A program made the translations under genes and the position numbers. 64,000 nt of DNA from Vicinamibacteria bacterium (GTDB lineage: Bacteria; Acidobacteriota; Vicinamibacteria; Marinacidobacterales; Marinacidobacteraceae): contig OZ219816.1 in NCBI GenBank assembly GCA_964291235.2, positions 1,856,001-1,920,000 of the forward strand, in the 5' to 3' direction. The notes beneath the pieces were generated by a model that was given only the letters and a program-made list of their open reading frames with translations, was not told where the DNA came from and did no database searches. Shown here piece by piece: positions 48,952-60,067 of this stretch (the stretch's first letter is position 1; the number at the start of each line of letters is the position of its first letter).

Positions 48952-49196
48952 GTTTCCGTCCGACGCACGTTCGGCTCCGCTGAGCCGGGCGCTGCCGGAT
49001 CGGGCTCGCGTCTCGCTCGCGCGCCCGGCAGGCGTCGCTCCCGGCCAGTCCCCTGACGACCGGCGGCCTGCGCTCGCGCAGGGTGGTCTTCCGGGCTCGC
49101 CAACCCGGTGACCCGCCGGCGGCCAGCGCCAGCCCGCCCAGCGCGGTCCCGCCCTGGCCCCGACCCGCCGCAGCCTGGCAACGGAATCTCCCAATC

Positions 49197-50537
49197 GTGT
49201 TCTTACGAAGATCCCTCTCCGGCAGCGCAGTGGCGGTCTTGCTGGCCGTCCCCGCTTCCGGAGGAACCCAGCCCGAGGCAGCGCTCGATTCCAGGCCCGA
49301 TTTCTACGCCGCCGAGCCGGAACTGAGGAGTTGCGTGGACAGCGCCATCGAGCGGCACCCCGCTCTGCTCGCATCGCGGGCGAACTACCACGCCGCCCGG
49401 GAACGGGTCCCGCAGGTCACCGCGCTCCCGGACCCGACCCTGAGCGTGAGTCAGGCGGTCCGGCGCGTGGAAACCCGCGTGGGCTCCCAGACCGGCGGCA
49501 TCACCGTGACCCAGTCCCTGCCCTGGTTCGGCGCCCGCGATCTCCGCGGCCGGGTTGCGCTCTCCGAAGCCGACGCCCAGCGCCGCGTTTACCAGGCCGA
49601 GGAGCGTGAAGTCATCGCTCGGATCAAGCGGACTTTCTACGACGTCGCCTACCTCGACGCCGCGCTCCGGCTACTGAACGAAGAGCACTCGCTCGTCGGG
49701 CACTACGAAACCCTGGCGCGGGCGCGCTATTCCACCGGCCAGGGTCTCCAGCAGGCGGTGATCCGGCTGCAGGCGGAACTCACCCGGATCGGCGACCGGC
49801 AGCGACAGCTCACCCGCCAGCGTCGGACGCTCGCCGTGAACCTCAACACGCTCTGCGCCCGGCCCCCGGAGACCGCCGTCCCGCCCATCCCCTCCCTCGA
49901 CCCGCCGGGGATGACCCTGGACCGGGCACATCTGGTGGGCCTGGGAGAGCGGAACCGGCAGGAGATGCTGGCGGCGACGGCACTGATCGAGGCGAGTCAG
50001 GACGCCGTCGAACTGGCCGGGATGAACTTCCGGCCCCGTTTCACCGCGAGCCTCGCGCTCATGAACGTTGCCGGCCGCGACCCGGCGGACGTCCTCGGAC
50101 CGCTCCCTCCGGATGAGGGCAAGAACTCCCTGAGCCTGTCGCTGGGGGTGTCGCTACCGGTGTGGAAGGAGAGCTACCGCGCTGGCGTCGAAGAAGCCGG
50201 GTACCGGCTCACGGCGCATCGAAGGCGTCTCGAAGAAGCCCGGGACGCCATGGAAAGCGCGGTGGAGCACGCCCTGATCCGGGTCGAGACCATCGAGGAA
50301 CAGCTCGCCCTGCTCGACACCGTGCTCGTTCCGCAGAGTGAGGAAACGCTCCACGCCACCGAGACCGCCTACGAAACGGGTCAGGTGGGAGTGCTGGACC
50401 TGCTCGACAGCGAACGCGTGCAACTCGACGTCCTGAGGATGCGGGCCCGCTACCTGTCCGACCTCCTCATTGCACTCGCCGATCTCGAACGTGGCATCGG
50501 CACCCGGGTACCCCTGCCCGCCGGGAGGGCCTCATGA
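49197..50537 (+). CDS. TolC family outer-membrane efflux protein (CusC role)
   Basis: LPDP, QSLPWFG, ARYSTG, AYETGQ..LDLLD; GTG 49197 precedes a signal peptide; ATGA overlap with cusB. Confidence 0.9.
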   Translation: MFLRRSLSGSAVAVLLAVPASGGTQPEAALDSRPDFYAAEPELRSCVDSAIERHPALLASRANYHAARERVPQVTALPDPTLSVSQAVRRVETRVGSQTGGITVTQSLPWFGARDLRGRVALSEADAQRRVYQAEEREVIARIKRTFYDVAYLDAALRLLNEEHSLVGHYETLARARYSTGQGLQQAVIRLQAELTRIGDRQRQLTRQRRTLAVNLNTLCARPPETAVPPIPSLDPPGMTLDRAHLVGLGERNRQEMLAATALIEASQDAVELAGMNFRPRFTASLALMNVAGRDPADVLGPLPPDEGKNSLSLSLGVSLPVWKESYRAGVEEAGYRLTAHRRRLEEARDAMESAVEHALIRVETIEEQLALLDTVLVPQSEETLHATETAYETGQVGVLDLLDSERVQLDVLRMRARYLSDLLIALADLERGIGTRVPLPAGRAS

Positions 50538-52015
50538 ACCGCACGCTCGTTATCGGGGCCGGCGCCTTCTTCGCCGGCATGGCGCTCGTCGCTCTCGCCG
50601 GGTTCGCCCTCGGCGGCTGGGAGTGGCCTCCCCGCTACGGCGTGCCCACCGAACAACACGAAGGGCACGACATGAGCGCCCCGGCCGCACAAGCGGAACG
50701 GGAAATCCTCTACTGGCGCGCCCCCATGGACCCGAACTTCACCTCGGATCGGCCCGGCAAGTCCCCCATGGGAATGGACCTCGTCCCGGTCTACGCGGAT
50801 CCTGCCCCGCCGGCGGAACGGGAGGTCCTCTACTGGCGCGCCCCCATGGACCCGAACTTCACCTCGGATCGGCCCGGCAAGTCCCCCATGGGCATGGATC
50901 TCGTCCCGGTTTACGCGGACGAAGCAGGGAGTCAACCGGAGGGGACGGTGCGCATCGACCCGACCTTCGTGCAGCGGATCGGCGTCCGCACGGCGCCCAT
51001 CGAGCGGCGCGACATCGCCCAGACGATCCGGACCGTCGGCACCCTCGCCCATAACGACAAACAGATCGCCTGGGTGGGCACGAAGTACGACGGCTGGATC
51101 GAAAACGTCGCGGTGAACTATCTCGGCGAGACCGTCGAGCAGGGCCAGGTGCTCTTCGACATCTACAGCCCGCAAATCGTCGCCACCCAGACCGAGTACC
51201 TCCACGCGCTGCACTACGCGGAGCGGCTGGACGCCTCGCAGTACCCCGACGTCGCCGAACGGGCGCGCTCGCTCGTGGAATCGGCCCGCACCCGGCTCCG
51301 CTACTGGGACATCACCGACGATCAGATCGCCATTCTGGAGCAGGAAGAGGCCCCGCGCCGCACGCTCTCGGTGGTCTCCCCCGTGACCGGCGTCGTGGTG
51401 GAGAAGGTGGACGAGGCGCTCGAGGGCATGTACGTCGAGCCGGGGATGAACCTCTACAAGGTGGCCGACCTCACCACCATCTGGGTGGACGTCGAGATCT
51501 TCGAGCACCAGGTGCAGGCCATGCGGATCGGCCAGCGGGCCGAGGTGGAACTGCCTTACGTGCCGGGACGGCCCTACACGGGCTTCGTCCGTTTCCTGTA
51601 TCCCCATTTCAACCAGGAGACGCGGACCATGACCGTGTCCATCGAGCTCGCGAATCCCGATCTGGCGCTCCGCGCGGGCATGTACGCGAACGTCACCTTC
51701 GACGTTCCGGTGGCCCGGGATGCCCTGGCGGTTCCCGAAGAAGCGGTGATCCGGAGCGGCACCCGGGACCTGGTGGTCCTTGAACTCTCGCCGGGCCTGT
51801 TCCGGGTGGCGGACGTCACTCTGGGCGCCAGCGGCGAGGGGCTGCTGGAGATCGTCGAGGGCGTAACCGAAGGGGACCGGGTCGTGGTCTCGGCCCAATT
51901 CCTGATCGATTCCGAAAGCAACCTCACCCAGGCCATCAAGGCGCCCGTCGCCGAACCGGAGGCCGCGGAGCCCGAGGCGCCGGAACCGGCCATGACCCAC
52001 CGCCACCACGGCTAG
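50534..52015 (+). CDS. cusB: CusB-type RND periplasmic adaptor with two Met-rich heavy-metal-binding domains
   Basis: Two YWRAPMDPNFTSDRPGKSPMGMDLVPVY; YSPQI, GMYA, AQFLIDSES; His-rich ends. Confidence 0.9.
   Translation: MNRTLVIGAGAFFAGMALVALAGFALGGWEWPPRYGVPTEQHEGHDMSAPAAQAEREILYWRAPMDPNFTSDRPGKSPMGMDLVPVYADPAPPAEREVLYWRAPMDPNFTSDRPGKSPMGMDLVPVYADEAGSQPEGTVRIDPTFVQRIGVRTAPIERRDIAQTIRTVGTLAHNDKQIAWVGTKYDGWIENVAVNYLGETVEQGQVLFDIYSPQIVATQTEYLHALHYAERLDASQYPDVAERARSLVESARTRLRYWDITDDQIAILEQEEAPRRTLSVVSPVTGVVVEKVDEALEGMYVEPGMNLYKVADLTTIWVDVEIFEHQVQAMRIGQRAEVELPYVPGRPYTGFVRFLYPHFNQETRTMTVSIELANPDLALRAGMYANVTFDVPVARDALAVPEEAVIRSGTRDLVVLELSPGLFRVADVTLGASGEGLLEIVEGVTEGDRVVVSAQFLIDSESNLTQAIKAPVAEPEAAEPEAPEPAMTHRHHG
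50693..50919 (+). repeat. intragenic tandem duplication, period 120 bp
   Basis: Near-identical DNA at 50693-50799 and 50813-50919. Confidence 0.95.
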
Positions 52016-52019
52016 CCCC

Positions 52020-55000
52020 ATGCTGACGCGCCTCATCGAGTGGTCGCTCCGGAACCGCCTGTTCATCCTCGTGCTGGCGGTGTTCCTCGCCGTCGCCGGG
52101 TTCCAGGCGCTCCGCGCCACTCCACTGGATGCGCTGCCGGATCTCTCCGACGTCCAGGTGATCGTGTTCACGGACTACCCGGGACAGGCCCCGCAGGTCG
52201 TCGAAGACCAGGTCACCTACCCGATCACCACCCAGATGCTCGCGGTCCCATCGGCCACCGTGGTGCGGGGCTATTCGTTCTTCGGCTTCTCGTTCGTCTA
52301 CGTGATCTTCGAGGATGGCACCGATCTCTACTGGGCCCGGAGCCGGGTTCTCGAGTACCTCAACTACGTCAGCGGCAGGCTCCCGGAGGGAGTCAGCCCC
52401 ACCCTGGGCCCCGACGCCAGCGGCGTCGGCTGGGCCTACATGTACGCGCTCCGCTCCGCGGACCACGATCTCGCCGAACTGCGGTCGCTCCAGGACTGGT
52501 TCCTCAAGTACGAACTCACCGCGGTCCAGGGGGTCTCGGAGGTGGCGAGCGTCGGCGGGTTCGTGCGCCAGTACCAGATCACCGTGGATCCGAATCGGCT
52601 CCGCGCCTACGACATCTCCCTGTCCCGCATCCGGGACGCGGTGCAGCGCAGCAACACGGACGTGGGGGGACGGGTCTTCGAGACCGCCGAGACGGAGTTC
52701 ATGGTTCGCGGGCAGGGCTATATCCAGGGGCTCGACGACGTGCGCCGCATTGCGCTCGGGGTGGACGCTTCCGGCACTCCGGTCACCGTCGAGGATGTCG
52801 CAACCGTCCAGTTCGGACCGGAAATCCGCCGGGGGCTGGCCGAACTGAACGGCGAGGGAGAGGTGGTCGGCGGCATCGTCGTGGTGCGGTCGGGCGCGAA
52901 CGTCCACGACGTCGTCGGACGGGTCAAGGCGCGGCTCGAAGAGCTCCAGGCGGGCCTTCCCGAAGGCGTGGAGGTGGTGCCGGTCTACGACCGGACGGAA
53001 CTGATCGAGAACTCCGTCGCCACCCTCCGCGAGAAGCTGATCGAGGAGATGGCGATCGTGGCGCTGGTCTGCGTCGTCTTCCTGATGCACCTGCGCTCCG
53101 CGCTGGTCGCGGTGATCACCCTGCCACTCGCGGTGCTGATGGCGTTCATCGTGATGTACGTGCAGGGGGTCGGGGCCAACATCATGTCGCTCGGCGGCAT
53201 CGCGATCGCCGTCGGGGCCATGGTGGACGCGGCGATCGTGATCGTGGAGAACGCCCACCGGCACCTGGAGCGGGACCGGGGCAAGGTACCCCACTGGAAG
53301 ATCATCGCGCGCGCCTCCACCGAGGTCGGGCCCACCCTCTTCTTCGCGCTGCTGGTGATCACAATCTCCTTCGCGCCCATCTTCGCGCTGGAGGCACAGG
53401 AAGGCCGGCTCTTCCGCCCGCTCGCGTTCACGAAGACCTACGCGATGGCCGCTGCGGCGCTGCTCTCCGTGACCCTCGTGCCGGTTCTCGCCGGCTTCTG
53501 GATCCGCGGGCGTATCCGGCCGGCGCGCCGCAATCCGGTCACCTGGCTGCTCATGGCGCTCTACCGCCCCATCCTGCGTCGGGTGCTGGCCTGGCGGTGG
53601 GCGGTCCTCGCGCTCACCCTGGCGGGAGCGGCCGCCACCGCGGTGCCGGTCTCGCGTCTCGGATCCGAGTTCATGCCGCCGCTCTGGGAAGGGGACCTGC
53701 TTTACATGCCGACCACCCTGCCCGGGGTCTCGATTACCAAGGCTCGCGAGGTGCTGCAGCAAACCGACCGGATCCTCCGGGACTTCCCCGAAGTGGACCA
53801 GGTATTTGGCAAGGTCGGACGCGCCGACACGGCCACCGACCCGGCGCCGCTGAGCATGATCGAGACGACGATCCTGCTGAAACCGGAGAGCGAGTGGCGG
53901 CCGGGCATGACCCCGGACCGGCTCATCGAGGAGATGGACGACGCCATCCGCTTCCCCGGACTGACCAACGCCTGGACGATGCCCATCAAGACCCGGATCG
54001 ACATGCTGTCCACCGGCATCAAGACCCCGGTGGGAGTCAAGCTGTCCGGTCCCGACCTGAGCGTGCTCGAGGATCTGGGCAGCCAGGTCGAAGCGGTCGT
54101 GCGCGACGTTCCGGGCACCCGTTCCGCCTATTCGGAACGGGCCATGGGCGGCAACTACCTGAACTTCACGATCCGCCGGGACGCCATCGCCCGCTACGGC
54201 CTGACGGTGGCCGACGTGCAGGAGGTCATCCAGTCGGCGATCGGCGGAATGAACATCACGACGACCGTGGAGGGGCTGGAGCGGTACCCGGTCAACCTCC
54301 GCTACAGCCGCGATCTGCGCGACAACCCGGCCGATTTCGGGGACATCCTCGTCCAGACGCCGACCCGGCAGCAGATCCCGCTCGCTTTCCTCGCGGACAT
54401 GTCCTTCGTCAAGGGACCGCCGGTCGTCAAGAGCGAGCAGTCCCGCCCGAACGCGTGGATCTACGTGGACATCGAGGACGTGGACATCGGAACCTACGTC
54501 GAGAACGCCCAGGCGGCGGTCGCCGCGGAGGTCGAGATCCCGACGGGCTACAGCCTCGGCTGGAGCGGGCAGTACGAGTTCCTGCTCCGCGCCCGCGAGC
54601 GCATGGAAATCATGATTCCGCTCACCCTGTTGCTCATTCTGCTCACGATCCAGATGAGCACCCGCTCGCTGTCGCGGACGCTGATCGTGGTGACGGCGGT
54701 GCCCCTCTCCCTCGTGGGCACCTTCTGGCTCCTCTTCGCGCTCGACTACAACCTGAGCATCGCGGTCGGTGTCGGGATCATCGCCCTCGCCGGGCTGAGC
54801 GCCGAGACGGGCGTCGTGATGCTTCTCTATCTCGACCGCTCCTGCGAAGCGGCCCGGGAGACGGGACGCCTCACGAACCGCGCCGAGCTGAGCGAGGCGG
54901 TGTTTGACGGCGCGCTCCGGCGTGTTCGTCCCGTCGCCATGCTGACCGCCACCACCGCGCTCGGCCTGCTGCCCATCATGTGGAGCACCGGCGCCGGGTC

Positions 55001-55142
55001 GGACGTCATGAAGCGGATCGCCGCCCCCATGGTGGGCGGAGTGGTGACCGCCGCATTGGTAGTGCTGGTGGTGTTTCCCGCGATCTACTTCATCTGGCGA
55101 GCGCGCGGGCTGCCGCGGACGACCGATGTCGCCCGGGACTAG
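52020..55142 (+). CDS. cusA: CusA/SilA heavy-metal RND efflux permease
   Basis: DALPDLSDVQVI, GPDASGVGW, GAMVDAAIV, Met sites LLYMP / PLSMIE / WTMPIK, RIAAPMVGG. Confidence 0.96.
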   Translation: MLTRLIEWSLRNRLFILVLAVFLAVAGFQALRATPLDALPDLSDVQVIVFTDYPGQAPQVVEDQVTYPITTQMLAVPSATVVRGYSFFGFSFVYVIFEDGTDLYWARSRVLEYLNYVSGRLPEGVSPTLGPDASGVGWAYMYALRSADHDLAELRSLQDWFLKYELTAVQGVSEVASVGGFVRQYQITVDPNRLRAYDISLSRIRDAVQRSNTDVGGRVFETAETEFMVRGQGYIQGLDDVRRIALGVDASGTPVTVEDVATVQFGPEIRRGLAELNGEGEVVGGIVVVRSGANVHDVVGRVKARLEELQAGLPEGVEVVPVYDRTELIENSVATLREKLIEEMAIVALVCVVFLMHLRSALVAVITLPLAVLMAFIVMYVQGVGANIMSLGGIAIAVGAMVDAAIVIVENAHRHLERDRGKVPHWKIIARASTEVGPTLFFALLVITISFAPIFALEAQEGRLFRPLAFTKTYAMAAAALLSVTLVPVLAGFWIRGRIRPARRNPVTWLLMALYRPILRRVLAWRWAVLALTLAGAAATAVPVSRLGSEFMPPLWEGDLLYMPTTLPGVSITKAREVLQQTDRILRDFPEVDQVFGKVGRADTATDPAPLSMIETTILLKPESEWRPGMTPDRLIEEMDDAIRFPGLTNAWTMPIKTRIDMLSTGIKTPVGVKLSGPDLSVLEDLGSQVEAVVRDVPGTRSAYSERAMGGNYLNFTIRRDAIARYGLTVADVQEVIQSAIGGMNITTTVEGLERYPVNLRYSRDLRDNPADFGDILVQTPTRQQIPLAFLADMSFVKGPPVVKSEQSRPNAWIYVDIEDVDIGTYVENAQAAVAAEVEIPTGYSLGWSGQYEFLLRARERMEIMIPLTLLLILLTIQMSTRSLSRTLIVVTAVPLSLVGTFWLLFALDYNLSIAVGVGIIALAGLSAETGVVMLLYLDRSCEAARETGRLTNRAELSEAVFDGALRRVRPVAMLTATTALGLLPIMWSTGAGSDVMKRIAAPMVGGVVTAALVVLVVFPAIYFIWRARGLPRTTDVARD

Positions 55143-55276
55143 GGCCGGACGATCGCGGAAGAGCGCTCGTAGCGAGCCATGAGTGTCTTCGCGGACACCT
55201 CCAGGTTCCGCGCTACACCTTCCGGATCGCCGGCCACCCGGATCTGATCGCCCAGTTCATCGAACTGCAGCGCCAT
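55139..55276 (-). CDS. possible 45-aa protein
   Basis: ATG overlaps upstream TGA (TGATG); MALQFDELGDQIRVAGDPEGVARNLEVSAKTLMARYERSSAIVRP; stop overlaps cusA stop at CTAG. Confidence 0.3.
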   Translation of the reverse strand: MALQFDELGDQIRVAGDPEGVARNLEVSAKTLMARYERSSAIVRP

Positions 55277-56136
55277 CACCGGCGCGGCGAAGGCGGATCG
55301 ACCGGCCCGCCCGCTGACGATGCGGGGAGGGCCAGCATCCCGGTCCCCGCCAGCACCGCCAGGTCGACAAACAGCAGCGGCGCGAACGGCGGAGCGCCGT
55401 GGACGAACGCCTCGAAGGGCCGTCCGCCGATGGCGCTGATCCCGGCGTCGAGGTGCAGCCAGAAGCCGAGCAGGCCGACTCCGACCTGAACCAGCAGCGT
55501 GAGACACGCGAGGCGGACGAGCCCCGGCGCGGGGGTGCGCCGCAATCCCACGAGGACGAGGTTCGACACCGCGAGCGCCGCCGCGACCACCGGAATCCAC
55601 TCGGTCCAGAAGGAAAATCCGTTCTGTTCGTGGTCCAGCAACGAGAGCACGAAGTTGCCCGCGAACCCGCCGGCCGCGAACATCGTCACCCAGCGGCCCC
55701 AGCCGAAATCGTCTGCGGCGGGACGGAACAGGCTTCTCCGGTTGGCGAGCAACAGGAACCCGATCCCGGCGTAGGCCAGCGGCGCCACGAACGGCGCCGC
55801 ATAGACAAGCCCGTCGAGGGCGAAACGGCGAAAGAAGGCGCTCTGGAGGTGCAGGATCGTCCCCCAGATCCCCACCCCCACCGAGAGCGCGCCGATCACA
55901 CCCCCGGCCCACCGCGCTGCCGGCGCATCGGGCCCCCGTCCGGACGCGAGCAGCCCGAAGAGCACAAGTCCGCCGGCCAGCGAGAACCACAGCGGCAGCC
56001 ACTCGACCGGCTCGCGGAACGAATTGACCGAGTGTGCGAAGAAGATGTCCACGGCCAGAAACAGCAGGTTCCCGGCGAGAAAGACCTCGAGCAAGAGGCG
56101 CCGGCGGCGCCGCAGAAACGCGAGGCGGCGGCTCAC
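55276..56136 (-). CDS. uncharacterised integral membrane protein, two internal repeats, four repeat-conserved His
   Basis: H..N.F...EW.P, GVG..G..LHL and AP..APL each occur twice; about 8 hydrophobic segments. Confidence 0.78.
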   Translation of the reverse strand: MSRRLAFLRRRRRLLLEVFLAGNLLFLAVDIFFAHSVNSFREPVEWLPLWFSLAGGLVLFGLLASGRGPDAPAARWAGGVIGALSVGVGIWGTILHLQSAFFRRFALDGLVYAAPFVAPLAYAGIGFLLLANRRSLFRPAADDFGWGRWVTMFAAGGFAGNFVLSLLDHEQNGFSFWTEWIPVVAAALAVSNLVLVGLRRTPAPGLVRLACLTLLVQVGVGLLGFWLHLDAGISAIGGRPFEAFVHGAPPFAPLLFVDLAVLAGTGMLALPASSAGGPVDPPSPRR

Positions 56137-56185
56137 GGGGCGCTGATTCGGCCGCTCGGGGTTCCGGCTGCCCGACCGGCCCCGG

Positions 56186-57448
56186 TCATTCCCGCTCGAG
56201 CCCGGCGATCCGTTCCTCGATCTCGCTGAGCCGGTTCAGCAGATCGTAGGTGCCGTGCCACTGCACGAAGTCGGCGCCATCCATGAAGGCGCCGTGTTTC
56301 ACCGTCCGCCCCGCGTAGTGCCACGCGTCGAAGAACAGGAAGTCGAGCGGCTCGTCAAACGGGGCATCGGTCAGCAGCCCGGCTTCCTGGACCTCGGCCA
56401 TCCGCTCCATGAGCGCCGACACCCGGACATTCGTGATGTCCACGACCCTCTCCGCCTCCGCGTAGAACTGTTGAATCTGCTTCTCCGCGTGGCACTTGAG
56501 GCAGATGCCCTGCATCTCGGCCTGCGCCTGGTCGTAGTGCGGACGTTTCTCGGAAACCGGCGCGAAGAGCCACCACGAGAGACGCTCGGTGGTGTCGTGG
56601 GTCACCTTGGCGCCCTCGAGCCCGCTCAGGTGGCAGGTGGCGCAGGTCGGGACCGGCATGTCGAACGCGGTGAGCAGCTTCGGCTCCGCATCCAGGTTCA
56701 TCAGGTGGCGCTGCGCCTCGAAGAGGATGCCGTGCTTCGACTCGCTGTAGATCTCCTTCTGGGCGTGGTCGGGCCCCATGTGGCACTGCCCGCAGGTCGC
56801 CGGCGACCGGGCCAGCGAGATGGCGGTGGAGTGCCGGCTGTGGCAGGCCGTGCATGTCCCGATGGAGCCGTCGGCGTTGGGCTGGCCGATGTCGTGGCAG
56901 CCAAGACAACCCGAAACGGCCGTCGCTTCGCCTTCCAGCCGGGCCAGCGCGTTCGGGGGGCGCCGTACCGCCCCCGGATGAAGTTCCTCCGCCCGCGCGA
57001 TCCGCTCGGTGGGGAACGTCGCGGGGTATCCCTCGGTACCCATGACCGCCGCGTAGGCGGGGAGCGCGTGCCGGCTGCGTTCGAACTGGCGCACCTCGTC
57101 GGCGTGGCAGTCCTGGCAGGCGAGGGCGGTGGCCGCGGTGGTCATTTCGAACCCGTGGTGCTCGAGGGCCGTCTGTCCCGGGCGCACCTGGTGGCAGTCG
57201 AGGCAGGTGACTCCGGCCCCGGCATGGGCGCTCATTTCAAACTGCGCCACCACCGCGCCGGTCTCGTTCCGGTGGCAGTTCGCGCACTCGCCGCTCGCCC
57301 GGATCTGTTCCGCCGACCGGCCGGCCACCCGGGGGCGGGCCTGGTGAAGCAGCACGGCGCCCGCCACCAGGACTCCGGCCACGCCGACGACCGCGACCAC
57401 GTCACGGAAGCGGATCCCGGCGAACGTCGGTGAACCTTGACCGGCCAT
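56186..57448 (-). CDS. membrane-anchored octaheme cytochrome c, hydroxylamine oxidoreductase (HAO) family
   Basis: Eight CxxCH (CANCH, CLDCH, CQDCH, CLGCH, CTACH, CGQCH, CATCH, CLKCH); GPDHAQKEIYSESKHG; HGAFMDGADFVQWHG. Confidence 0.88.
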   Translation of the reverse strand: MAGQGSPTFAGIRFRDVVAVVGVAGVLVAGAVLLHQARPRVAGRSAEQIRASGECANCHRNETGAVVAQFEMSAHAGAGVTCLDCHQVRPGQTALEHHGFEMTTAATALACQDCHADEVRQFERSRHALPAYAAVMGTEGYPATFPTERIARAEELHPGAVRRPPNALARLEGEATAVSGCLGCHDIGQPNADGSIGTCTACHSRHSTAISLARSPATCGQCHMGPDHAQKEIYSESKHGILFEAQRHLMNLDAEPKLLTAFDMPVPTCATCHLSGLEGAKVTHDTTERLSWWLFAPVSEKRPHYDQAQAEMQGICLKCHAEKQIQQFYAEAERVVDITNVRVSALMERMAEVQEAGLLTDAPFDEPLDFLFFDAWHYAGRTVKHGAFMDGADFVQWHGTYDLLNRLSEIEERIAGLERE

Positions 57449-57582: not shown

Positions 57583-59859
57583 TCAGGACTGGGCGAACAG
57601 ATCCGGCGGCCCCGCCGTCTCCTGCGACTCGACCACTGCGATGGCGACCACGTTGACGATCTCTTCCACTTCGGCGCCGCGCTGCAGGACGTGCACCGGA
57701 CGGCGGAGACCGGTCACGATGGGGCCGATCGCCTCCGCGCCCCCGAGGCGCTGGAGCAGCTTGTAGGCCACGTTCCCGGCTTCCAGGCTGGGGAAGATCA
57801 ACACGTTGGCGGCCCGATCGAGGCGCGAGAACGGATAGGTACCGCGGAGCAGGTCGTCCACCACCGCGGTGTCGGCCTGCATCTCCCCGTCGGCAACCAG
57901 ATCCGGCGCCCGCTCGCGCAGGATCTCGACCGCCTCGCGCACCTTGTTCGAACGCTCGTGGGGAGCGCTTCCAAAGTTGGAGAAGGAGAGCATCGCCACC
58001 CGTGGCTCCACGTCGAAGCGCTTTGCCACTTCGGCAGTCTGGATCGCGATGTCGGCGAGATCCTCGGCGCTGGGATCGATGTTCACCGTCGCGTCCGCGA
58101 AGAACTTGATCTCGTTGGGGAAGACCATCAGGTACACCCCGGCGACCCGCCGGACGTCGTCGCGCATCCGGACGATCTGGAGCGCCGGACGGATGGTCTC
58201 GGGATAGTGCTGGGTGACGCCCGCCACCATCGTGTCGGCGTGCCCGAGGTTCACCATCATGGCTCCGTACACGGTCGGGTTCTTGATGAGCTCGCGCGCC
58301 TTGGCGGGCCCGACCCCGCGCCGCTGACGGATCTCCACCAGGCGCCGGGCATATTCCTCGCAACGCTCGGGGTCGGTGACATCCACCACCCGGGCGCCTT
58401 CGACATCGATGCCGAGGGTCTCGCAGGCATCCCGGATGACCTGCGGGCGTCCGAGCAGGATGGGCTCGGCGATTCCCTCATCGAGCAGCCGCTGGGCAGC
58501 CCGCAGAATCTTCGGCTCCTCGCCTTCGGGGAACGCGACGGACCGGGTGACCCGCTTGGCGCGGCCGATCACCTGGCGCATGACTTCGCGCTCGAGACCG
58601 AGGCGGGATTCGAGCCGGGCGCCGTACTGCTCCAGGTCGATCTGGATGCGGGCGACGCCGCTTTTCATCGCGGCCTCGGCGACCGCGGGGGCCTCCCAGA
58701 GAAGCACCCGGGAGTCGAACGGCGAGGGAATGAGGTACTCCGGGCCGAAGGACATCCGCTCCTTGCCGTGCGCGCGCATCACGGAATCGGGAACGTCCTC
58801 CTTGGTGAGTTCCGCCAGGGCCCTTGCGGCCGCCAGCTTCATCTCCATGTTGATGGTGCGGGCCCGCACGTCGAGTGCGCCCCGGAAGATGAATGGGAAC
58901 CCGAGGACATTGTTGACCTGGTTCGGATAATCCGAGCGCCCGGTGGCCATGAAGACGTCGCTGCGAGCGTCCATGGCGTCTTCCCAGGTGATTTCCGGGT
59001 CCGGATTGGCCATCGCCAGCACGAGCGGCTGGTCGTGCATGGAGACGAGCATTTCCTTCGAGACCGCGTCCTTGACCGAAAGGCCCATGAACACGTCGGC
59101 GCCGCGCATGGCATCGGCGAGGGATCGCATGGAGGTGTCGAGGGCGTAGCGCTCCTTGAACTCGTTCATCCCCGCCTCACGGCCCGCGTGGATGACTCCG
59201 CGAGAGTCGCACATCACCACGTTCTCGTGGAGCACACCCAGGCTCTCCGCGAGTTCGGCGCAGGCAATCCCCGCCGCCCCGGCGCCGTTGATGACCAGTC
59301 GCACCTCGGCGGGGTCCTTGCCGGTGAGTTCGAGCCAGCTCAGGAAGGCGGCCCCGGAGATGATCGCGGTGCCATGCTGGTCGTCGTGGAAGACGGGAAT
59401 GTCCATCTGCTCCCGGAGCTGGGACTCGATGTAGAAGCAGTCCGGCGCCTTGATGTCCTCGAGGTTGATTCCGCCGAAGGTCGGTTCGAGGGCCTTCACC
59501 ACCCGGACCACTTCCTCCGGGTCGGTGACGTTCAGCTCGATGTCGAAGACGTCGATGTCGGCGAAGCGCTTGAAGAGCACGCCCTTGCCTTCCATGACCG
59601 GCTTGGCGGCCAGCGGCCCGATGTTGCCGAGGCCGAGCACGGCGGTCCCGTTCGAGACCACGGCGACCAGGTTGCCGCGCGCGGTGTAGTCGAACACCCG
59701 CTCGGGAGCCTTGTGGATTTCGCGGCAGGGCTCGGCGACGCCCGGGCTGTAGGCAAGCGACAGATCCCGCTGGGTCTGGGTGGGTTTCGTGGGCCGAACC
59801 TCGATCTTTCCGGCCCGGCCGGTCATGTGGTAGTCGAGGGCATCCTGTCTGCGAATCAA
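57583..59859 (-). CDS. maeB: NADP-dependent malic enzyme with phosphotransacetylase-like domain
   Basis: [44 protein letters not shown]; TTG 59859 after AGGAG. Confidence 0.95.
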
Positions 59860-60067
59860 GGGACTCTCCTCACAAGGGTGAGATGCGCGGGCTCGGCCGC
59901 TGGAGTGCTGGCGGAGCGTGGCCGCGGGTGACTCAGGGTCCCGCCCATTCGGGACCGGAAGGCGCGAAGTGTAACGGTCCGGCACCCGTTTGAAGGACCG
60001 GCGTCGGGGCCTCCGGAGATTCCCGGATCCGGAAGGCCCTTGCCGCGGGGCCTACGGGCCAGCCCCG

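What the first reader, a model, noticed from the sequence alone, without database searches (positions are those of the whole stretch)
55276..57448. Octaheme HAO-like cytochrome paired with an unknown four-histidine duplicated membrane protein: candidate new quinol-linked N-oxide reductase module
Seen: a 420-aa protein with an N-terminal TM helix and eight CxxCH motifs is followed 49 nt later by a 286-aa protein made of two homologous halves, each with two His (FFAHSVNSF/LLDHEQNGF; TILHL/FWLHL) plus EWxP and APxxAPL. Known: oxidative HAO has a Tyr cross-link to the catalytic heme, whereas epsilonproteobacterial Hao lacks it and works reductively; described partners are c554/cM552, NapC/NrfH or NapGH, none of which is in this window. 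Inference: by-eye alignment puts Trp (MDGADFVQW) at the cross-link Tyr position, implying nitrite/hydroxylamine/NO reduction, and the four His could ligate two b hemes to form a quinol dehydrogenase of an undescribed fold.
Basis: partly seen in the sequence, partly recalled or inferred. Interest (0 to 1): 0.8.

Follow-up and report, generated by a model that had tools for sequence, protein, structure and literature searches.

The report
Octaheme reductase with unknown membrane partner
Two adjacent genes encode a membrane-anchored eight-heme enzyme of the hydroxylamine-oxidoreductase family and an unannotated eight-helix membrane protein with four invariant histidines, a pair kept together across many bacterial phyla that probably wires the enzyme to the membrane quinone pool in an untested way.

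Summary
Gene A (56186-57448, minus strand, 420 aa) has one N-terminal membrane helix and eight CxxCH motifs. Gene B (55276-56136, minus strand, 286 aa) lies 49 nt downstream. It is an internally duplicated 4+4-helix membrane protein.

- **A** belongs to the HAO/IhOCC octaheme clade.
- **B** matches no Pfam or NCBIfam family, no solved sequence and no membrane fold.
- **The pair is strictly conserved.** 79 of 80 loci with a B relative have A directly upstream; the one miss sits at a contig edge. In 401 Acidobacteriota genomes, the same 14 carry both.
- **The four His are invariant** in 81 of 81 B rows. All sit at the periplasmic membrane face.
- **Sister octaheme clades** (18 loci) have Rieske/cytochrome b or NapC/NirT in B's place and never B.
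- **A few pairs** sit next to hcp, qNor or nnrS.

Best reading (about 0.55): B is the quinone-pool electron-transfer subunit of a reductive nitrite/NO/hydroxylamine enzyme. Three points stay unproven:
- heme b binding by B;
- the substrate;
- the Tyr cross-link column.

The complex prediction never ran. This scan has found the same module before on other DNA.

The parts
56186..57448 (-). Gene A: membrane-anchored octaheme cytochrome c of the HAO/IhOCC clade (420 aa)
   Evidence: ORF. Eight CxxCH motifs. Pfam PF13447 at 5.3e-19, 69 bits against a cut-off of 21.9. Family profile against solved sequences: IhOCC 4qo5 8.7e-49, Nitrosomonas HAO 3.8e-28, Kustc0458 8.2e-24. Fold: residues 226-420 match 1fgj_A with Z 16.8, rmsd 2.4, 192 aligned.
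57344..57400 (-). N-terminal membrane helix of A (residues 17-35), a likely uncleaved signal anchor
   Evidence: Hydropathy peak of 2.52. Helix 14-37 in the model. The helix sequence is conserved across phyla, and R38 and P39 just after it are invariant in 39 rows.
56137..56185 (-). 49-nt spacer between A and B
   Evidence: In relatives the two frames are closer. In 43 of 79 loci the estimated B start lies before the A stop; these starts are estimated from alignment offsets, not from verified start codons.
55276..56136 (-). Gene B: uncharacterised 8-helix membrane protein made of two homologous four-helix bundles (286 aa)
   Evidence: ORF. Eight helices. Model pLDDT 92.1, pTM 0.90. Halves 31% identical, E 8e-5. 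No Pfam or NCBIfam family. At least 878 relatives, with 'hypothetical protein' the only kind of name in the 120 listed rows. 538 clusters at 50% identity.
56032..56034 (-). Codon of His35 (periplasmic end of helix 1)
   Evidence: 81 of 81 rows.
55849..55851 (-). Codon of His96 (helix 3, GxxxH motif)
   Evidence: H96 and G92 are each present in 81 of 81 rows.
55630..55632 (-). Codon of His169 (periplasmic end of helix 5, preceded by invariant Asp168)
   Evidence: 81 of 81 rows.
55453..55455 (-). Codon of His228 (helix 7, GxxxH motif)
   Evidence: H228 and G224 are each present in 81 of 81 rows.

Best explanation
A and B are the two subunits of one membrane-bound enzyme.

**A** is held in the membrane by its N-terminal helix. 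Its eight c-type hemes face the periplasm. It is the catalytic subunit: an HAO/IhOCC-type octaheme cytochrome working in the reductive direction on a nitrogen oxide (nitrite, NO or hydroxylamine).

**B** is its electron-entry module. It is built from two four-helix bundles. Each bundle presents a pair of invariant histidines, on the first and third helix, at the periplasmic membrane face.

**Proposed mechanism.** B oxidises (mena)quinol near that face and releases the protons to the periplasm. It passes the electrons to the heme chain of A, either through one b-type heme per bundle or directly from a cofactor-free quinol site. B would therefore play the role that NapC/NrfH-type tetrahemes or Rieske/cytochrome b complexes play for sister octaheme cytochromes.

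**Shown here**
- gene anatomy;
- family membership of A;
- strict pairing of A and B;
- conservation and sidedness of the His residues;
- replacement pattern in sister clades.

**Inferred**
- physical complex;
- quinol oxidation;
- heme b;
- substrate;
- direction of catalysis.
For: **The pair is one unit**
- 79 of 80 loci with a B relative have an A relative directly upstream on the same strand. The single miss (L051) starts 86 bases from a contig end. By record title the loci span Acidobacteriota, Planctomycetota, Verrucomicrobiota, Gemmatimonadota, Zixibacteria, Myxococcota, Poribacteria, Bacteroidota/Rhodothermales and others.
- Among 401 Acidobacteriota genomes, the 14 with a B orthologue (E <= 6.6e-72) are the same 14 as those with an A orthologue (E <= 6.4e-138), at adjacent coordinates. 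One of the 14 (G024) is unpublished; without it the count is 13 of 13.
- Beyond close relatives, the flanking genes are unrelated.
- The 39 B-linked cytochromes form one side of a long branch (SH-aLRT 99, length 1.49) against 19 sister cytochromes.

**B occupies the slot of a quinol module**
- In 18 sister-cytochrome loci no B-like gene was found (0 of 18).
- Rieske plus cytochrome b lie directly upstream in 3 loci (L112, L120, L125).
- Cytochrome b lies directly upstream in 3 more (L126, L127, L128).
- NapC/NirT-type cytochromes lie adjacent in 2 (L122, L123).

**Chemistry of B**
- H35, H96, H169, H228, D30, D168, E179 and the GxxxH glycines are present in 81 of 81 rows.
- By my own count of loop charges in the sequence, the cytoplasmic loops carry about +16 and the outer loops about -3. 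This puts the N-terminus inside and all invariant residues at the periplasmic face, next to where A's hemes must be.

**Nitrogen-oxide context**
- hcp lies directly upstream on the same strand in 4 of 80 loci.
- qNor lies directly downstream on the same strand in 3 loci and nearby in 1.
- nnrS lies downstream in 2 loci.
- qNor also lies beside sister cytochromes in 4 of 18 loci.

**Reductive type**
- The closest solved relative by sequence is IhOCC. It is described as lacking the P460 cross-link and as a nitrite reductase (PMC9250108, passages).
- The C-terminal region of A aligns by sequence only to IhOCC and to Kustc0458. Kustc0458 lacks the Tyr cross-link and reduces nitrite to NO (PMC8042395, abstract and passages).
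- The Asp-His pair after heme 6 (D227, H228) is present in 80 of 80 rows. It is shared with Nitrosomonas HAO and Kustc0458 in the printed alignments.

**Wider family**
- Double-bundle relatives of B sit in an operon with a GMC flavoprotein dehydrogenase and its small subunit in 3 of 3 loci. I saw no cytochrome c subunit there.
Against: - **No direct evidence.** Nothing here shows that A and B bind, that B binds heme or quinone, or what the substrate is.
- **No family or fold match.** B matches no known quinol-oxidising family or fold. The best fold matches are soluble two-bundle proteins 3d19_A (Z 16.0) and 3dby_A (Z 15.7); the rest are generic four-helix bundles.
- **Distant relatives look non-redox.** The most distant relatives of B are single four-helix units of about 145-170 aa. 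In 24 of 24 loci they pair with a secreted helix-hairpin-helix repeat protein, which is not a redox protein. Only 7 of those 24 also have a PQQ dehydrogenase nearby. The conserved His pair therefore need not mean electron transfer.
- **Some relatives have no cytochrome.** A full-length paralogue group of B (8 genomes, E 1e-30 to 1e-38) has no cytochrome nearby in the one locus I read (L087).
- **No fusions.** I found no fused A-B protein (the tool itself calls this weak evidence).
- **Thin nitrogen context.** Only 10 of 80 loci have nitrogen-oxide genes beside the pair.
- **This genome lacks the usual N-oxide genes.** The window's own genome (90% complete) has no NarG, NapA, NirK over cut-off, Hcp, qNor or NnrS. 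There is only a weak partial cytochrome d1-like hit (28.5 bits).
- **Tyr cross-link unresolved.** Tyr401 is nearly invariant (79 of 80 rows) close to the expected region. Position 394 is Tyr in 9 of 80 rows.
Confidence: 0.55

Rival explanations
1. B is not an electron carrier. It is a membrane dock, an assembly or maturation factor, or a stabilising subunit for the anchored cytochrome. A receives electrons from elsewhere, for example from the cell's own cytochrome bc-type complex through a soluble carrier.
For: - One-bundle relatives of B pair with a secreted helix-hairpin-helix protein in 24 of 24 loci.
- B has no match to any quinol-oxidising family or fold.
- The genome holds a cytochrome b gene elsewhere.
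Against: - Sister cytochromes carry their own quinol modules in the same gene slot, and the B-linked clade never does.
- All invariant polar residues of B cluster at the membrane face next to the hemes.
- Double-bundle relatives sit in operons with GMC dehydrogenases.
Confidence: 0.2
2. The enzyme works oxidatively, on hydroxylamine, hydrazine or a related compound. B is then the quinone reductase that takes up the electrons, a short version of the HAO-c554-cM552 chain.
For: - The Asp-His pair of the HAO active site is kept.
- The C-terminal half matches Nitrosomonas HAO as well as it matches IhOCC (Z 16.8-16.9 against 16.2).
- The Tyr column is unresolved, with Tyr401 nearly invariant and Tyr at position 394 in 9 of 80 rows.
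Against: - By sequence A is much closer to IhOCC (8.7e-49) than to HAO (3.8e-28).
- Its C-terminal region aligns by sequence only to the two cross-link-free structures.
- IhOCC also has Tyr at the column of Tyr401 in the printed alignment, and it is reported to have no P460 heme (PMC9250108, passages).
- The neighbours, where informative, are NO or hydroxylamine reductases.
Confidence: 0.1
3. The pair is a quinol-linked reductase, but its substrate is not a nitrogen oxide. Candidates are sulfite, tetrathionate, a metal or a peroxide.
For: - 70 of 80 loci give no nitrogen context.
- This genome lacks nitrate and nitrite reductases of the usual kinds.
- Octaheme relatives such as MccA and OTR act on sulfur compounds (PMC9250108, passages).
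Against: - All solved close relatives act on nitrogen compounds.
- MccA matches only weakly (Z 6.2).
- The only recurring functional neighbours are hcp, qNor and nnrS.
Confidence: 0.12
4. B is a channel or transporter for the substrate, the product or protons of the cytochrome.
For: B is an eight-helix protein with inverted-repeat-free tandem bundles and conserved Asp, Glu and His residues.
Against: - The conserved residues lie at one membrane face only, not along a path through the membrane.
- Substrate and product of a periplasmic reductase need not cross the membrane.
- No transporter fold stands out.
Confidence: 0.03

Closest known systems
IhOCC, octaheme cytochrome c of Ignicoccus hospitalis (PDB 4qo5)
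   Same: - Best solved sequence match to A: 1.7e-32 for the single sequence and 8.7e-49 for the profile.
- Fold match Z 16.2, rmsd 2.0, 194 aligned.
- Eight hemes.
- Reported without the P460 cross-link and as a nitrite reductase (PMC9250108, passages).
- Found in membrane fractions (PMC4429474, passages).
   Different: - It is archaeal and about 100 residues longer.
- At the Asp-His pair after heme 6 it has Asp-Val in the printed alignment.
- The passages I read describe no B-like partner. I did not see the original structure paper.
Kustc0458/Kustc0457 (HAOr) of Kuenenia stuttgartiensis (PDB 6h5l)
   Same: - HAO-family octaheme without the Tyr cross-link that reduces nitrite to NO (PMC8042395, abstract and passages).
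- Matches A at 8.2e-24, including the C-terminal region.
- Fold match Z 13.8.
   Different: It is soluble, and its partner is a diheme cytochrome c, not a membrane protein.
HAO-like octahemes built into Rieske/cytochrome b complexes (Kuste4574 of R/b-3)
   Same: - An HAO-like enzyme wired directly to a quinol-oxidising membrane module (PMC12485887, passages).
- The same layout appears here in sister cytochromes of Acidobacteriota: 6 of 18 loci.
   Different: The membrane module there is a classical Rieske/cytochrome b pair. The B-linked clade has neither next to it.
Epsilon-Hao and NrfA with NapC/NrfH-type tetraheme quinol dehydrogenases
   Same: - A reductive multiheme enzyme fed from the quinone pool by a small membrane subunit encoded beside it. 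That epsilon-Hao uses such a donor is my recollection; PMC5317091 (passages) discusses candidate donors for it.
- NapC/NirT genes flank 2 of 18 sister cytochromes here.
   Different: B has one Cys and no CxxCH (sequence), so it cannot be a c-type cytochrome. It has eight helices, not one.
HaoB (orf2), the gene next to haoA in ammonia and methane oxidisers
   Same: A protein of unknown function encoded directly after an HAO gene and expressed with it (PMC3772326, PMC5623727, PMC8402940; passages).
   Different: - HaoB accompanies oxidative, Tyr-bearing HAO.
- B hit no NCBIfam model at E <= 1. That NCBIfam holds a HaoB model is my recollection only.
3d19 / 3dby, soluble 'conserved metalloprotein' of Bacillus cereus
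   Same: The only whole-length fold matches to B: Z 16.0 (rmsd 3.7, 239 aligned) and Z 15.7 (rmsd 3.9, 227 aligned). Both are two four-helix bundles side by side.
   Different: They are soluble and 5-7% identical to B. The likeness may be only the common arrangement of two helical bundles.

Membership tests
HAO/IhOCC octaheme cytochrome c family (Pfam PF13447) | Eight CxxCH heme c motifs | tested here: met
   Motifs start at residues 55, 82, 111, 181, 199, 219, 269 and 316. 75 of 80 family rows have eight; the other five have 3, 5, 5, 7 and 7.
HAO/IhOCC octaheme cytochrome c family (Pfam PF13447) | Profile match above the curated cut-off | tested here: met
   PF13447 at 5.3e-19, 69 bits against a cut-off of 21.9.
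HAO/IhOCC octaheme cytochrome c family (Pfam PF13447) | Fold with the long C-terminal helices | tested here: met
   Residues 226-420 match 4n4n_E (Z 16.9), 1fgj_A (Z 16.8), 4qo5 (Z 16.2) and 6h5l_A (Z 13.8). The next family, MccA, scores Z 6.2. The N-terminal half is supported by sequence only.
HAO/IhOCC octaheme cytochrome c family (Pfam PF13447) | Asp-His pair after the sixth heme motif (its active-site role is recalled) | tested here: met
   D227 and H228 are each present in 80 of 80 rows. They align with the D-H of Nitrosomonas HAO and of Kustc0458.
Oxidative HAO/HDH subgroup (P460 heme) | Tyr that cross-links to the catalytic heme of the next subunit (Tyr467 of Nitrosomonas HAO; the number is recalled) | tested here: inconclusive
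   - Sequence profiles align A to HAO only as far as chain residue 408.
- A C-terminal profile finds only IhOCC.
- The fold match covers chain residues 266-491 and so includes residue 467, but it gives no residue pairs.
- Residues 386-400 of A hold no Tyr. Tyr401 is present in 79 of 80 rows, and position 394 is Tyr in 9 of 80.
NapC/NirT/NrfH/cM552 quinol dehydrogenases (tested for B) | Four CxxCH heme c motifs on a single-helix anchor | tested here: not met
   B has one Cys, no CxxCH and eight helices.
NrfD/PsrC family (tested for B) | Match to Pfam PF03916 | tested here: not met
   No Pfam hit for B at E <= 1 except DUF6264 (E 0.1, 13.2 bits against a cut-off of 31).
NrfD/PsrC family (tested for B) | Eight-helix NrfD fold | tested here: inconclusive
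   Foldseek lists an ActC chain (6btm_C) only at E 1.0 with TM 0.18. No such chain appears among the 50 rows shown from the wide search.
Di-heme membrane cytochromes b (bc1 cytochrome b, NarI, b561, FdnI; tested for B) | Family profile match | tested here: not met
   B gave no hit to PF00033, PF13631, PF01292 or PF14358. The same scan setting found these families readily in the cytochrome b genes beside sister cytochromes.
Di-heme membrane cytochromes b (bc1 cytochrome b, NarI, b561, FdnI; tested for B) | Two His pairs at different membrane depths, making a transmembrane heme pair | tested here: not met
   The four invariant His lie on four different helices (1, 3, 5, 7), all at the periplasmic end. 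Sidedness comes from my count of loop charges.
HaoB (orf2) of ammonia oxidisers (tested for B) | Sequence homology to HaoB | not tested
An accession I recalled turned out to be a different family.

The most novel reading that the evidence does not exclude
B is the founding member, in functional terms, of a new superfamily of membrane redox modules. The unit is a four-helix bundle with one His at the end of helix 1, a GxxxH on helix 3 and an APxxAP turn before helix 4. Each unit would bind one b-type heme at the outer membrane face.

As a tandem pair or a dimer, the module would link the quinone pool to quite different enzymes:
- HAO-like octaheme reductases;
- GMC flavoprotein dehydrogenases that lack their usual cytochrome c subunit;
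- perhaps PQQ dehydrogenases.

That would make it a fourth kind of quinol/cytochrome coupling device, beside NapC/NrfH, NrfD/PsrC and Rieske/cytochrome b.
Probability: 0.3. Interest if true: 0.8.

Novelty: new variant of a known kind. Interest (0 to 1): 0.66.

Why it matters
**Ecology.** HAO-like octahemes are often scored in metagenomes as 'hao', and so as a sign of nitrification or of a missing nitrite reductase (for example PMC11266412, passages). This clade occurs in at least 524 species genomes of soil, marine and sponge-associated phyla. Its activity and its electron source therefore bear on budgets of nitrite, NO, N2O and ammonium.

**Bioenergetics.** If B is a new quinol-oxidising subunit, it adds an unannotated family to the small set of devices that connect the quinone pool to periplasmic enzymes. 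It would also explain how these organisms feed the enzyme without NapC/NrfH or a dedicated bc-type complex.

**Testability.** The question can be tested now, because cultured carriers exist:
- Locus L081 comes from a Tautonia isolate.
- A B relative is named from a Poriferisphaera isolate.
- PMC11266412 (passages) notes that Poriferisphaera corsica encodes the cytochrome.

Tried and rejected
- **Complex prediction.** There is no result of any kind.
- **Fused A-B proteins.** A search among proteins of 502-2000 residues found none. The tool calls this weak evidence.
- **Foldseek of B against the PDB.** No match at E <= 0.001.
- **ESM Atlas for B.** Only unnamed clusters came back.
- **Solved sequences for B.** The only row was 7rh6_Q at E 0.52.
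- **Reading the Tyr column by sequence.** Neither the full-family profile nor a C-terminal profile reaches that region of Nitrosomonas HAO.
- **HaoB.** The accession I recalled (TIGR04390) is an unrelated family. A paper search with 'HaoB' and 'transmembrane' returned only author names. Homology with HaoB is untested.
- **First locus scan.** A 16-sequence alignment worked.
- **Promoter and terminator scan around the pair.** No sigma-70-like site was found. The two terminator-like sites both lie inside the genes and are no more than chance would give.
- **Expression.** No RNA holder was listed among 17 runs, so I laid no reads.
- **Earlier notes of this scan, searched by sequence.** Nothing was returned.
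- **Crude longest-ORF gene calling** in GC-rich loci gave spurious antisense clusters. I replaced it with a GC3-based choice.
- **Not in print, as far as searched.** Paper searches, and the passages I read from 13 papers, gave no description of a B-like partner. Supplements were not opened, and the original papers on IhOCC, epsilon-Hao and the hao clusters were not seen.


Full report
**What is there**

On the minus strand of the window lie two genes.
- Gene A, 56186..57448, encodes 420 aa and starts with ATG.
- Gene B, 55276..56136, encodes 286 aa and starts with GTG.
- 49 nt separate them.

Upstream on the same strand, after a 134-nt gap, lies a long ORF at 57583..59985. By eye it looks like a malic enzyme. 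Downstream, an RND efflux-like operon converges on the pair. I tested neither.

A has one hydrophobic helix (residues 17-35) and eight CxxCH motifs, which use all 16 of its cysteines.

B has eight hydrophobic helices. Its model is confident (pLDDT 92.1, pTM 0.90) and shows two four-helix bundles. The two halves align at 31% identity over 112 residues (E 8e-5), pairing H35 with H169, H96 with H228, EWLP with EWIP and APFVAPL with APPFAPL.

**What A is**

- *Pfam:* A falls in PF13447 (5.3e-19, 69 bits against a cut-off of 21.9).
- *Solved sequences:* a profile of 39 family members matches IhOCC 4qo5 at 8.7e-49, Nitrosomonas HAO at 3.8e-28, Kustc0458 at 8.2e-24 and hydrazine dehydrogenase at 1.5e-20.
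- *Fold:* the model of A (pLDDT 80.8) matches, over residues 226-420, Nitrosomonas HAO (Z 16.9 and 16.8), IhOCC (Z 16.2), Kustc0458 (Z 13.8) and hydrazine dehydrogenase (Z 12.4). The next family, MccA, reaches only Z 6.2.
- *Active site:* the Asp-His pair after the sixth heme motif is kept in 80 of 80 rows. It aligns with the same pair in HAO and Kustc0458, whereas IhOCC has Asp-Val there.

A is therefore a member of the HAO/HDH/IhOCC clade described in PMC9250108 (passages).

**The Tyr cross-link**

The literature treats the presence or absence of one Tyr as the mark of oxidative or reductive catalysis (PMC8042395, passages). I could not read that column.
- Sequence profiles align A with Nitrosomonas HAO only up to chain residue 408.
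- A profile of the C-terminal 80 residues finds only IhOCC.
- The fold match spans chain residues 266-491 of 1FGJ, and so includes residue 467 (a number I recall from the literature). It gives ranges only, not residue pairs.

The window protein has no Tyr in residues 386-400. Tyr401 is nearly invariant (79 of 80 rows), and position 394 is Tyr in 9 of 80 rows. IhOCC carries Tyr at the column of Tyr401 in the printed alignment, yet it is reported to lack the P460 heme (PMC9250108, passages). Tyr401 is therefore not diagnostic.

The C-terminal region of A aligns by sequence only to the two cross-link-free structures. I lean towards 'no cross-link' and file the test as inconclusive.

**What B is not**

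- No Pfam family. The only row is DUF6264, far below its cut-off.
- No NCBIfam family at E <= 1.
- No solved sequence.
- No named cluster in the ESM Atlas.
- No Foldseek match at E <= 0.001.

An exhaustive fold comparison puts two soluble Bacillus cereus proteins made of two four-helix bundles on top: 3d19_A (Z 16.0, rmsd 3.7, 239 aligned) and 3dby_A (Z 15.7). Below them come only generic four-helix bundles.

B has one Cys and no CxxCH, so it is not a NapC/NrfH-type cytochrome.

The family is large:
- at least 878 relatives in one database, with 'hypothetical protein' the only kind of name in the 120 listed rows;
- 538 clusters at 50% identity in another.

**The pair is a unit**

It returned the best 80 loci. 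In 79 of these an A relative lies directly upstream on the same strand. The exception, L051, begins 86 bases from a contig end. In 43 of 79 loci the estimated start of B lies before the stop of A; the starts are estimated from alignment offsets.

By record title the loci span Acidobacteriota, Planctomycetota, Verrucomicrobiota, Gemmatimonadota, Zixibacteria, Myxococcota, Poribacteria, Bacteroidota/Rhodothermales and others.

Looking from A's side, I searched 401 Acidobacteriota genomes.
- 135 hold some relative of A at E <= 1e-10.
- The 14 best (E <= 6.4e-138) are the same 14 genomes that hold a B orthologue (E <= 6.6e-72), at adjacent coordinates.
- One of the 14, G024, is unpublished; without it the count is 13 of 13.

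In a quick maximum-likelihood tree of 58 cytochromes, the 39 B-linked ones form one side of a long branch (SH-aLRT 99, length 1.49). Phyla are intermixed inside that group, which suggests that the two genes move together. That tree was built with a short search and has two long-branch rows outside the group.

**Conservation in B**

Across 81 rows, all of the following are invariant:
- H35, H96, H169 and H228;
- N23, D30, P48, G92, Y112, P115, P119, D168, E179, G224, P249 and P253.

H246 is not invariant (47 of 81).

Counting charges in the sequence, the N-terminus and the loops after helices 2, 4 and 6 carry about +16, and the other loops about -3. The N-terminus is therefore inside. All invariant residues sit at or near the periplasmic face, on helices 1, 3, 5 and 7 and at the starts of helices 2, 4, 6 and 8.

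Four His on four helices at one face could hold two hemes side by side, one per bundle, between the diagonal helices 1 and 3. They could not hold a heme pair across the membrane. The Gly one turn before each helix-3 His would suit close packing of a flat cofactor. That last point is inference only.

**Comparative evidence for the role of B**

I read 18 loci of sister octaheme cytochromes from Acidobacteriota (E 1e-41 to 1e-104 to the A profile). None has a B-like gene (0 of 18). Their neighbours are instead:
- Rieske plus cytochrome b directly upstream in L112, L120 and L125;
- cytochrome b directly upstream in L126, L127 and L128;
- a NapC/NirT tetraheme upstream in L123;
- a five-heme, three-helix NapC/NirT-like protein downstream in L122;
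- qNor, with a small cupin gene between them in the two loci where that gene was scanned, next to the cytochrome in L114, L115, L124 and L129.

In this protein family, then, the gene next to the cytochrome is often a recognised quinol-oxidising module. The literature knows this layout for Kuste4574 in a Rieske/cytochrome b complex (PMC12485887, passages) and discusses such donors for epsilon-Hao (PMC5317091, passages). The B-linked clade never has such a module and always has B. This is the strongest argument that B does that job.

**Substrate context**

Of 115 genes flanking the pair in diverse loci, most are unrelated to each other. The recurring ones, counted over all 80 loci, are:
- hcp directly upstream on the same strand: 4 loci (L060, L063, L070, L076);
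- qNor: 4 loci (directly downstream on the same strand in L054, L056 and L077; on the opposite strand in L046);
- nnrS: 2 loci (L024, L045).

That is 10 of 80 loci, all pointing to NO or hydroxylamine chemistry.

The window's own genome (3.45 Mb, 90% complete) has one HAO-like gene. In it I found:
- no NarG, NapA or NrfD;
- no NirK over cut-off (24 bits against 296);
- only a weak partial cytochrome d1-like hit (28.5 bits);
- no Hcp, qNor, NnrS or NapC by tblastn.

Here the pair stands alone. It may act on nitrite, NO or hydroxylamine made by neighbours, or its substrate may be something else.

**The wider family of B, for and against**

The profile searches also found more distant relatives.

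*Double-bundle proteins of about 320 aa.* Both halves resemble the second half of B. In 3 of 3 loci read (L086, L088, L093; one family, three genera) they lie in an operon with a Gluconate_2-dh3-type small subunit and a GMC flavoprotein dehydrogenase. I saw no cytochrome c subunit there. This fits a role as membrane electron acceptor. However, the small subunits show no obvious export signal, so the side of the membrane is open.

*Single bundles of about 145-170 aa.* In 24 of 24 loci (8 Acidobacteriota, 16 Gemmatimonadota) they are followed by a helix-hairpin-helix repeat protein of about 170-230 aa. The three of these whose N-terminus I read carry a signal peptide. PQQ dehydrogenases lie beside 7 of the 24. 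Four are fused to a cytochrome c domain, all in one genus; one of the four was judged by homology only. Three are of the GSDH type. The constant partner is thus not a redox protein, which counts against a purely redox reading of the family.

*A full-length paralogue group (8 genomes).* The one locus I read (L087) has no cytochrome nearby.

Across 17 aligned units, the invariant residues are the helix-1 His, the helix-3 GxxxH, one Pro at the start of helix 2 and one Pro of the APxxAP turn.

**Verdict**

The pairing is about as strict as gene pairs get, and B belongs to no described family that I could find. Paper searches, and passages of 13 papers, mention no such partner. PMC11266412 (passages) notes the cytochrome in Phycisphaerae and proposes a nitrite reductase without naming a partner. 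I opened no supplements.

My confidences are as follows.

| Claim | Confidence |
|---|---|
| A and B work together | about 0.9 |
| B is the link to the quinone pool | about 0.6 |
| The enzyme works reductively on a nitrogen oxide | about 0.6 |
| B binds heme b | about 0.45 |
| The combined statement | about 0.55 |

This scan has reported the same module before on other DNA (e1-2345500, e1-3588880, e1-776805), with the same reading. I saw those notes only after my own tests.
- the two-way count in 401 genomes;
- the replacement pattern in sister clades;
- the tree;
- the one-sided placement of the His residues;
- the mixed evidence from the distant relatives.

Noticed in passing
L085:5266-6393, L104:5039-6177 and 22 further loci (L084, L089-L092, L094-L103, L105-L111): Single four-helix relatives of B (about 145-170 aa, with the same His / GxxxH / APxxAP signature) are followed by a helix-hairpin-helix repeat protein in 24 of 24 loci from Acidobacteriota and Gemmatimonadota. 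The three partners whose N-terminus I read carry a signal peptide. This is an unannotated conserved pair of unknown function.
   Followed up: partly
L093:5139-8574; also L086:5040-8514 and L088:4950-8490: Double-bundle relatives of B lie in an overlapping operon with a Gluconate_2-dh3-type small subunit and a GMC oxidoreductase. I saw no cytochrome c subunit, and the small subunits show no obvious export signal.
   Followed up: partly
L125:1783-8111: One strand carries, in order, Rieske, cytochrome b, a 546-aa octaheme HAO-like cytochrome, a molybdopterin oxidoreductase and a tetraheme cytochrome. This looks like a compact nitrate-to-product respiratory island in an Acidobacteriota genome.
   Followed up: no
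L114, L115, L124, L129: Sister octaheme cytochromes lie next to a qNor gene. In L114 and L115 a small cupin-domain gene lies between the two; in L124 and L129 that gene was not scanned.
   Followed up: no
L112, L116, L118, L121, L123: An Alginate_exp-type outer-membrane barrel gene lies beside sister octaheme cytochromes in 5 of 18 loci. One also lies upstream of the pair in L047.
   Followed up: no
A residue 394 (window 56267-56269) and its relatives: Position 394, inside the stretch where the HAO cross-link Tyr may align, is Phe in 70 and Tyr in 9 of 80 family rows.
   Followed up: partly
G359:C5:101899-103126 and L060:3097-4736: In one Acidobacteriota genome the A gene is split into two frames while B is intact. 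In L060 the hcp gene upstream of the pair is split into three ORFs. These may be frameshifts or assembly errors.
   Followed up: no
window 49083-55142 (+) and 57583-59985 (-): By eye only, the pair is flanked by a three-gene RND efflux-like operon (outer-membrane factor, adaptor and a 1040-aa pump) that converges on it, and upstream by a malic-enzyme-like gene. The same neighbours recur only in close Vicinamibacteria relatives.
   Followed up: no
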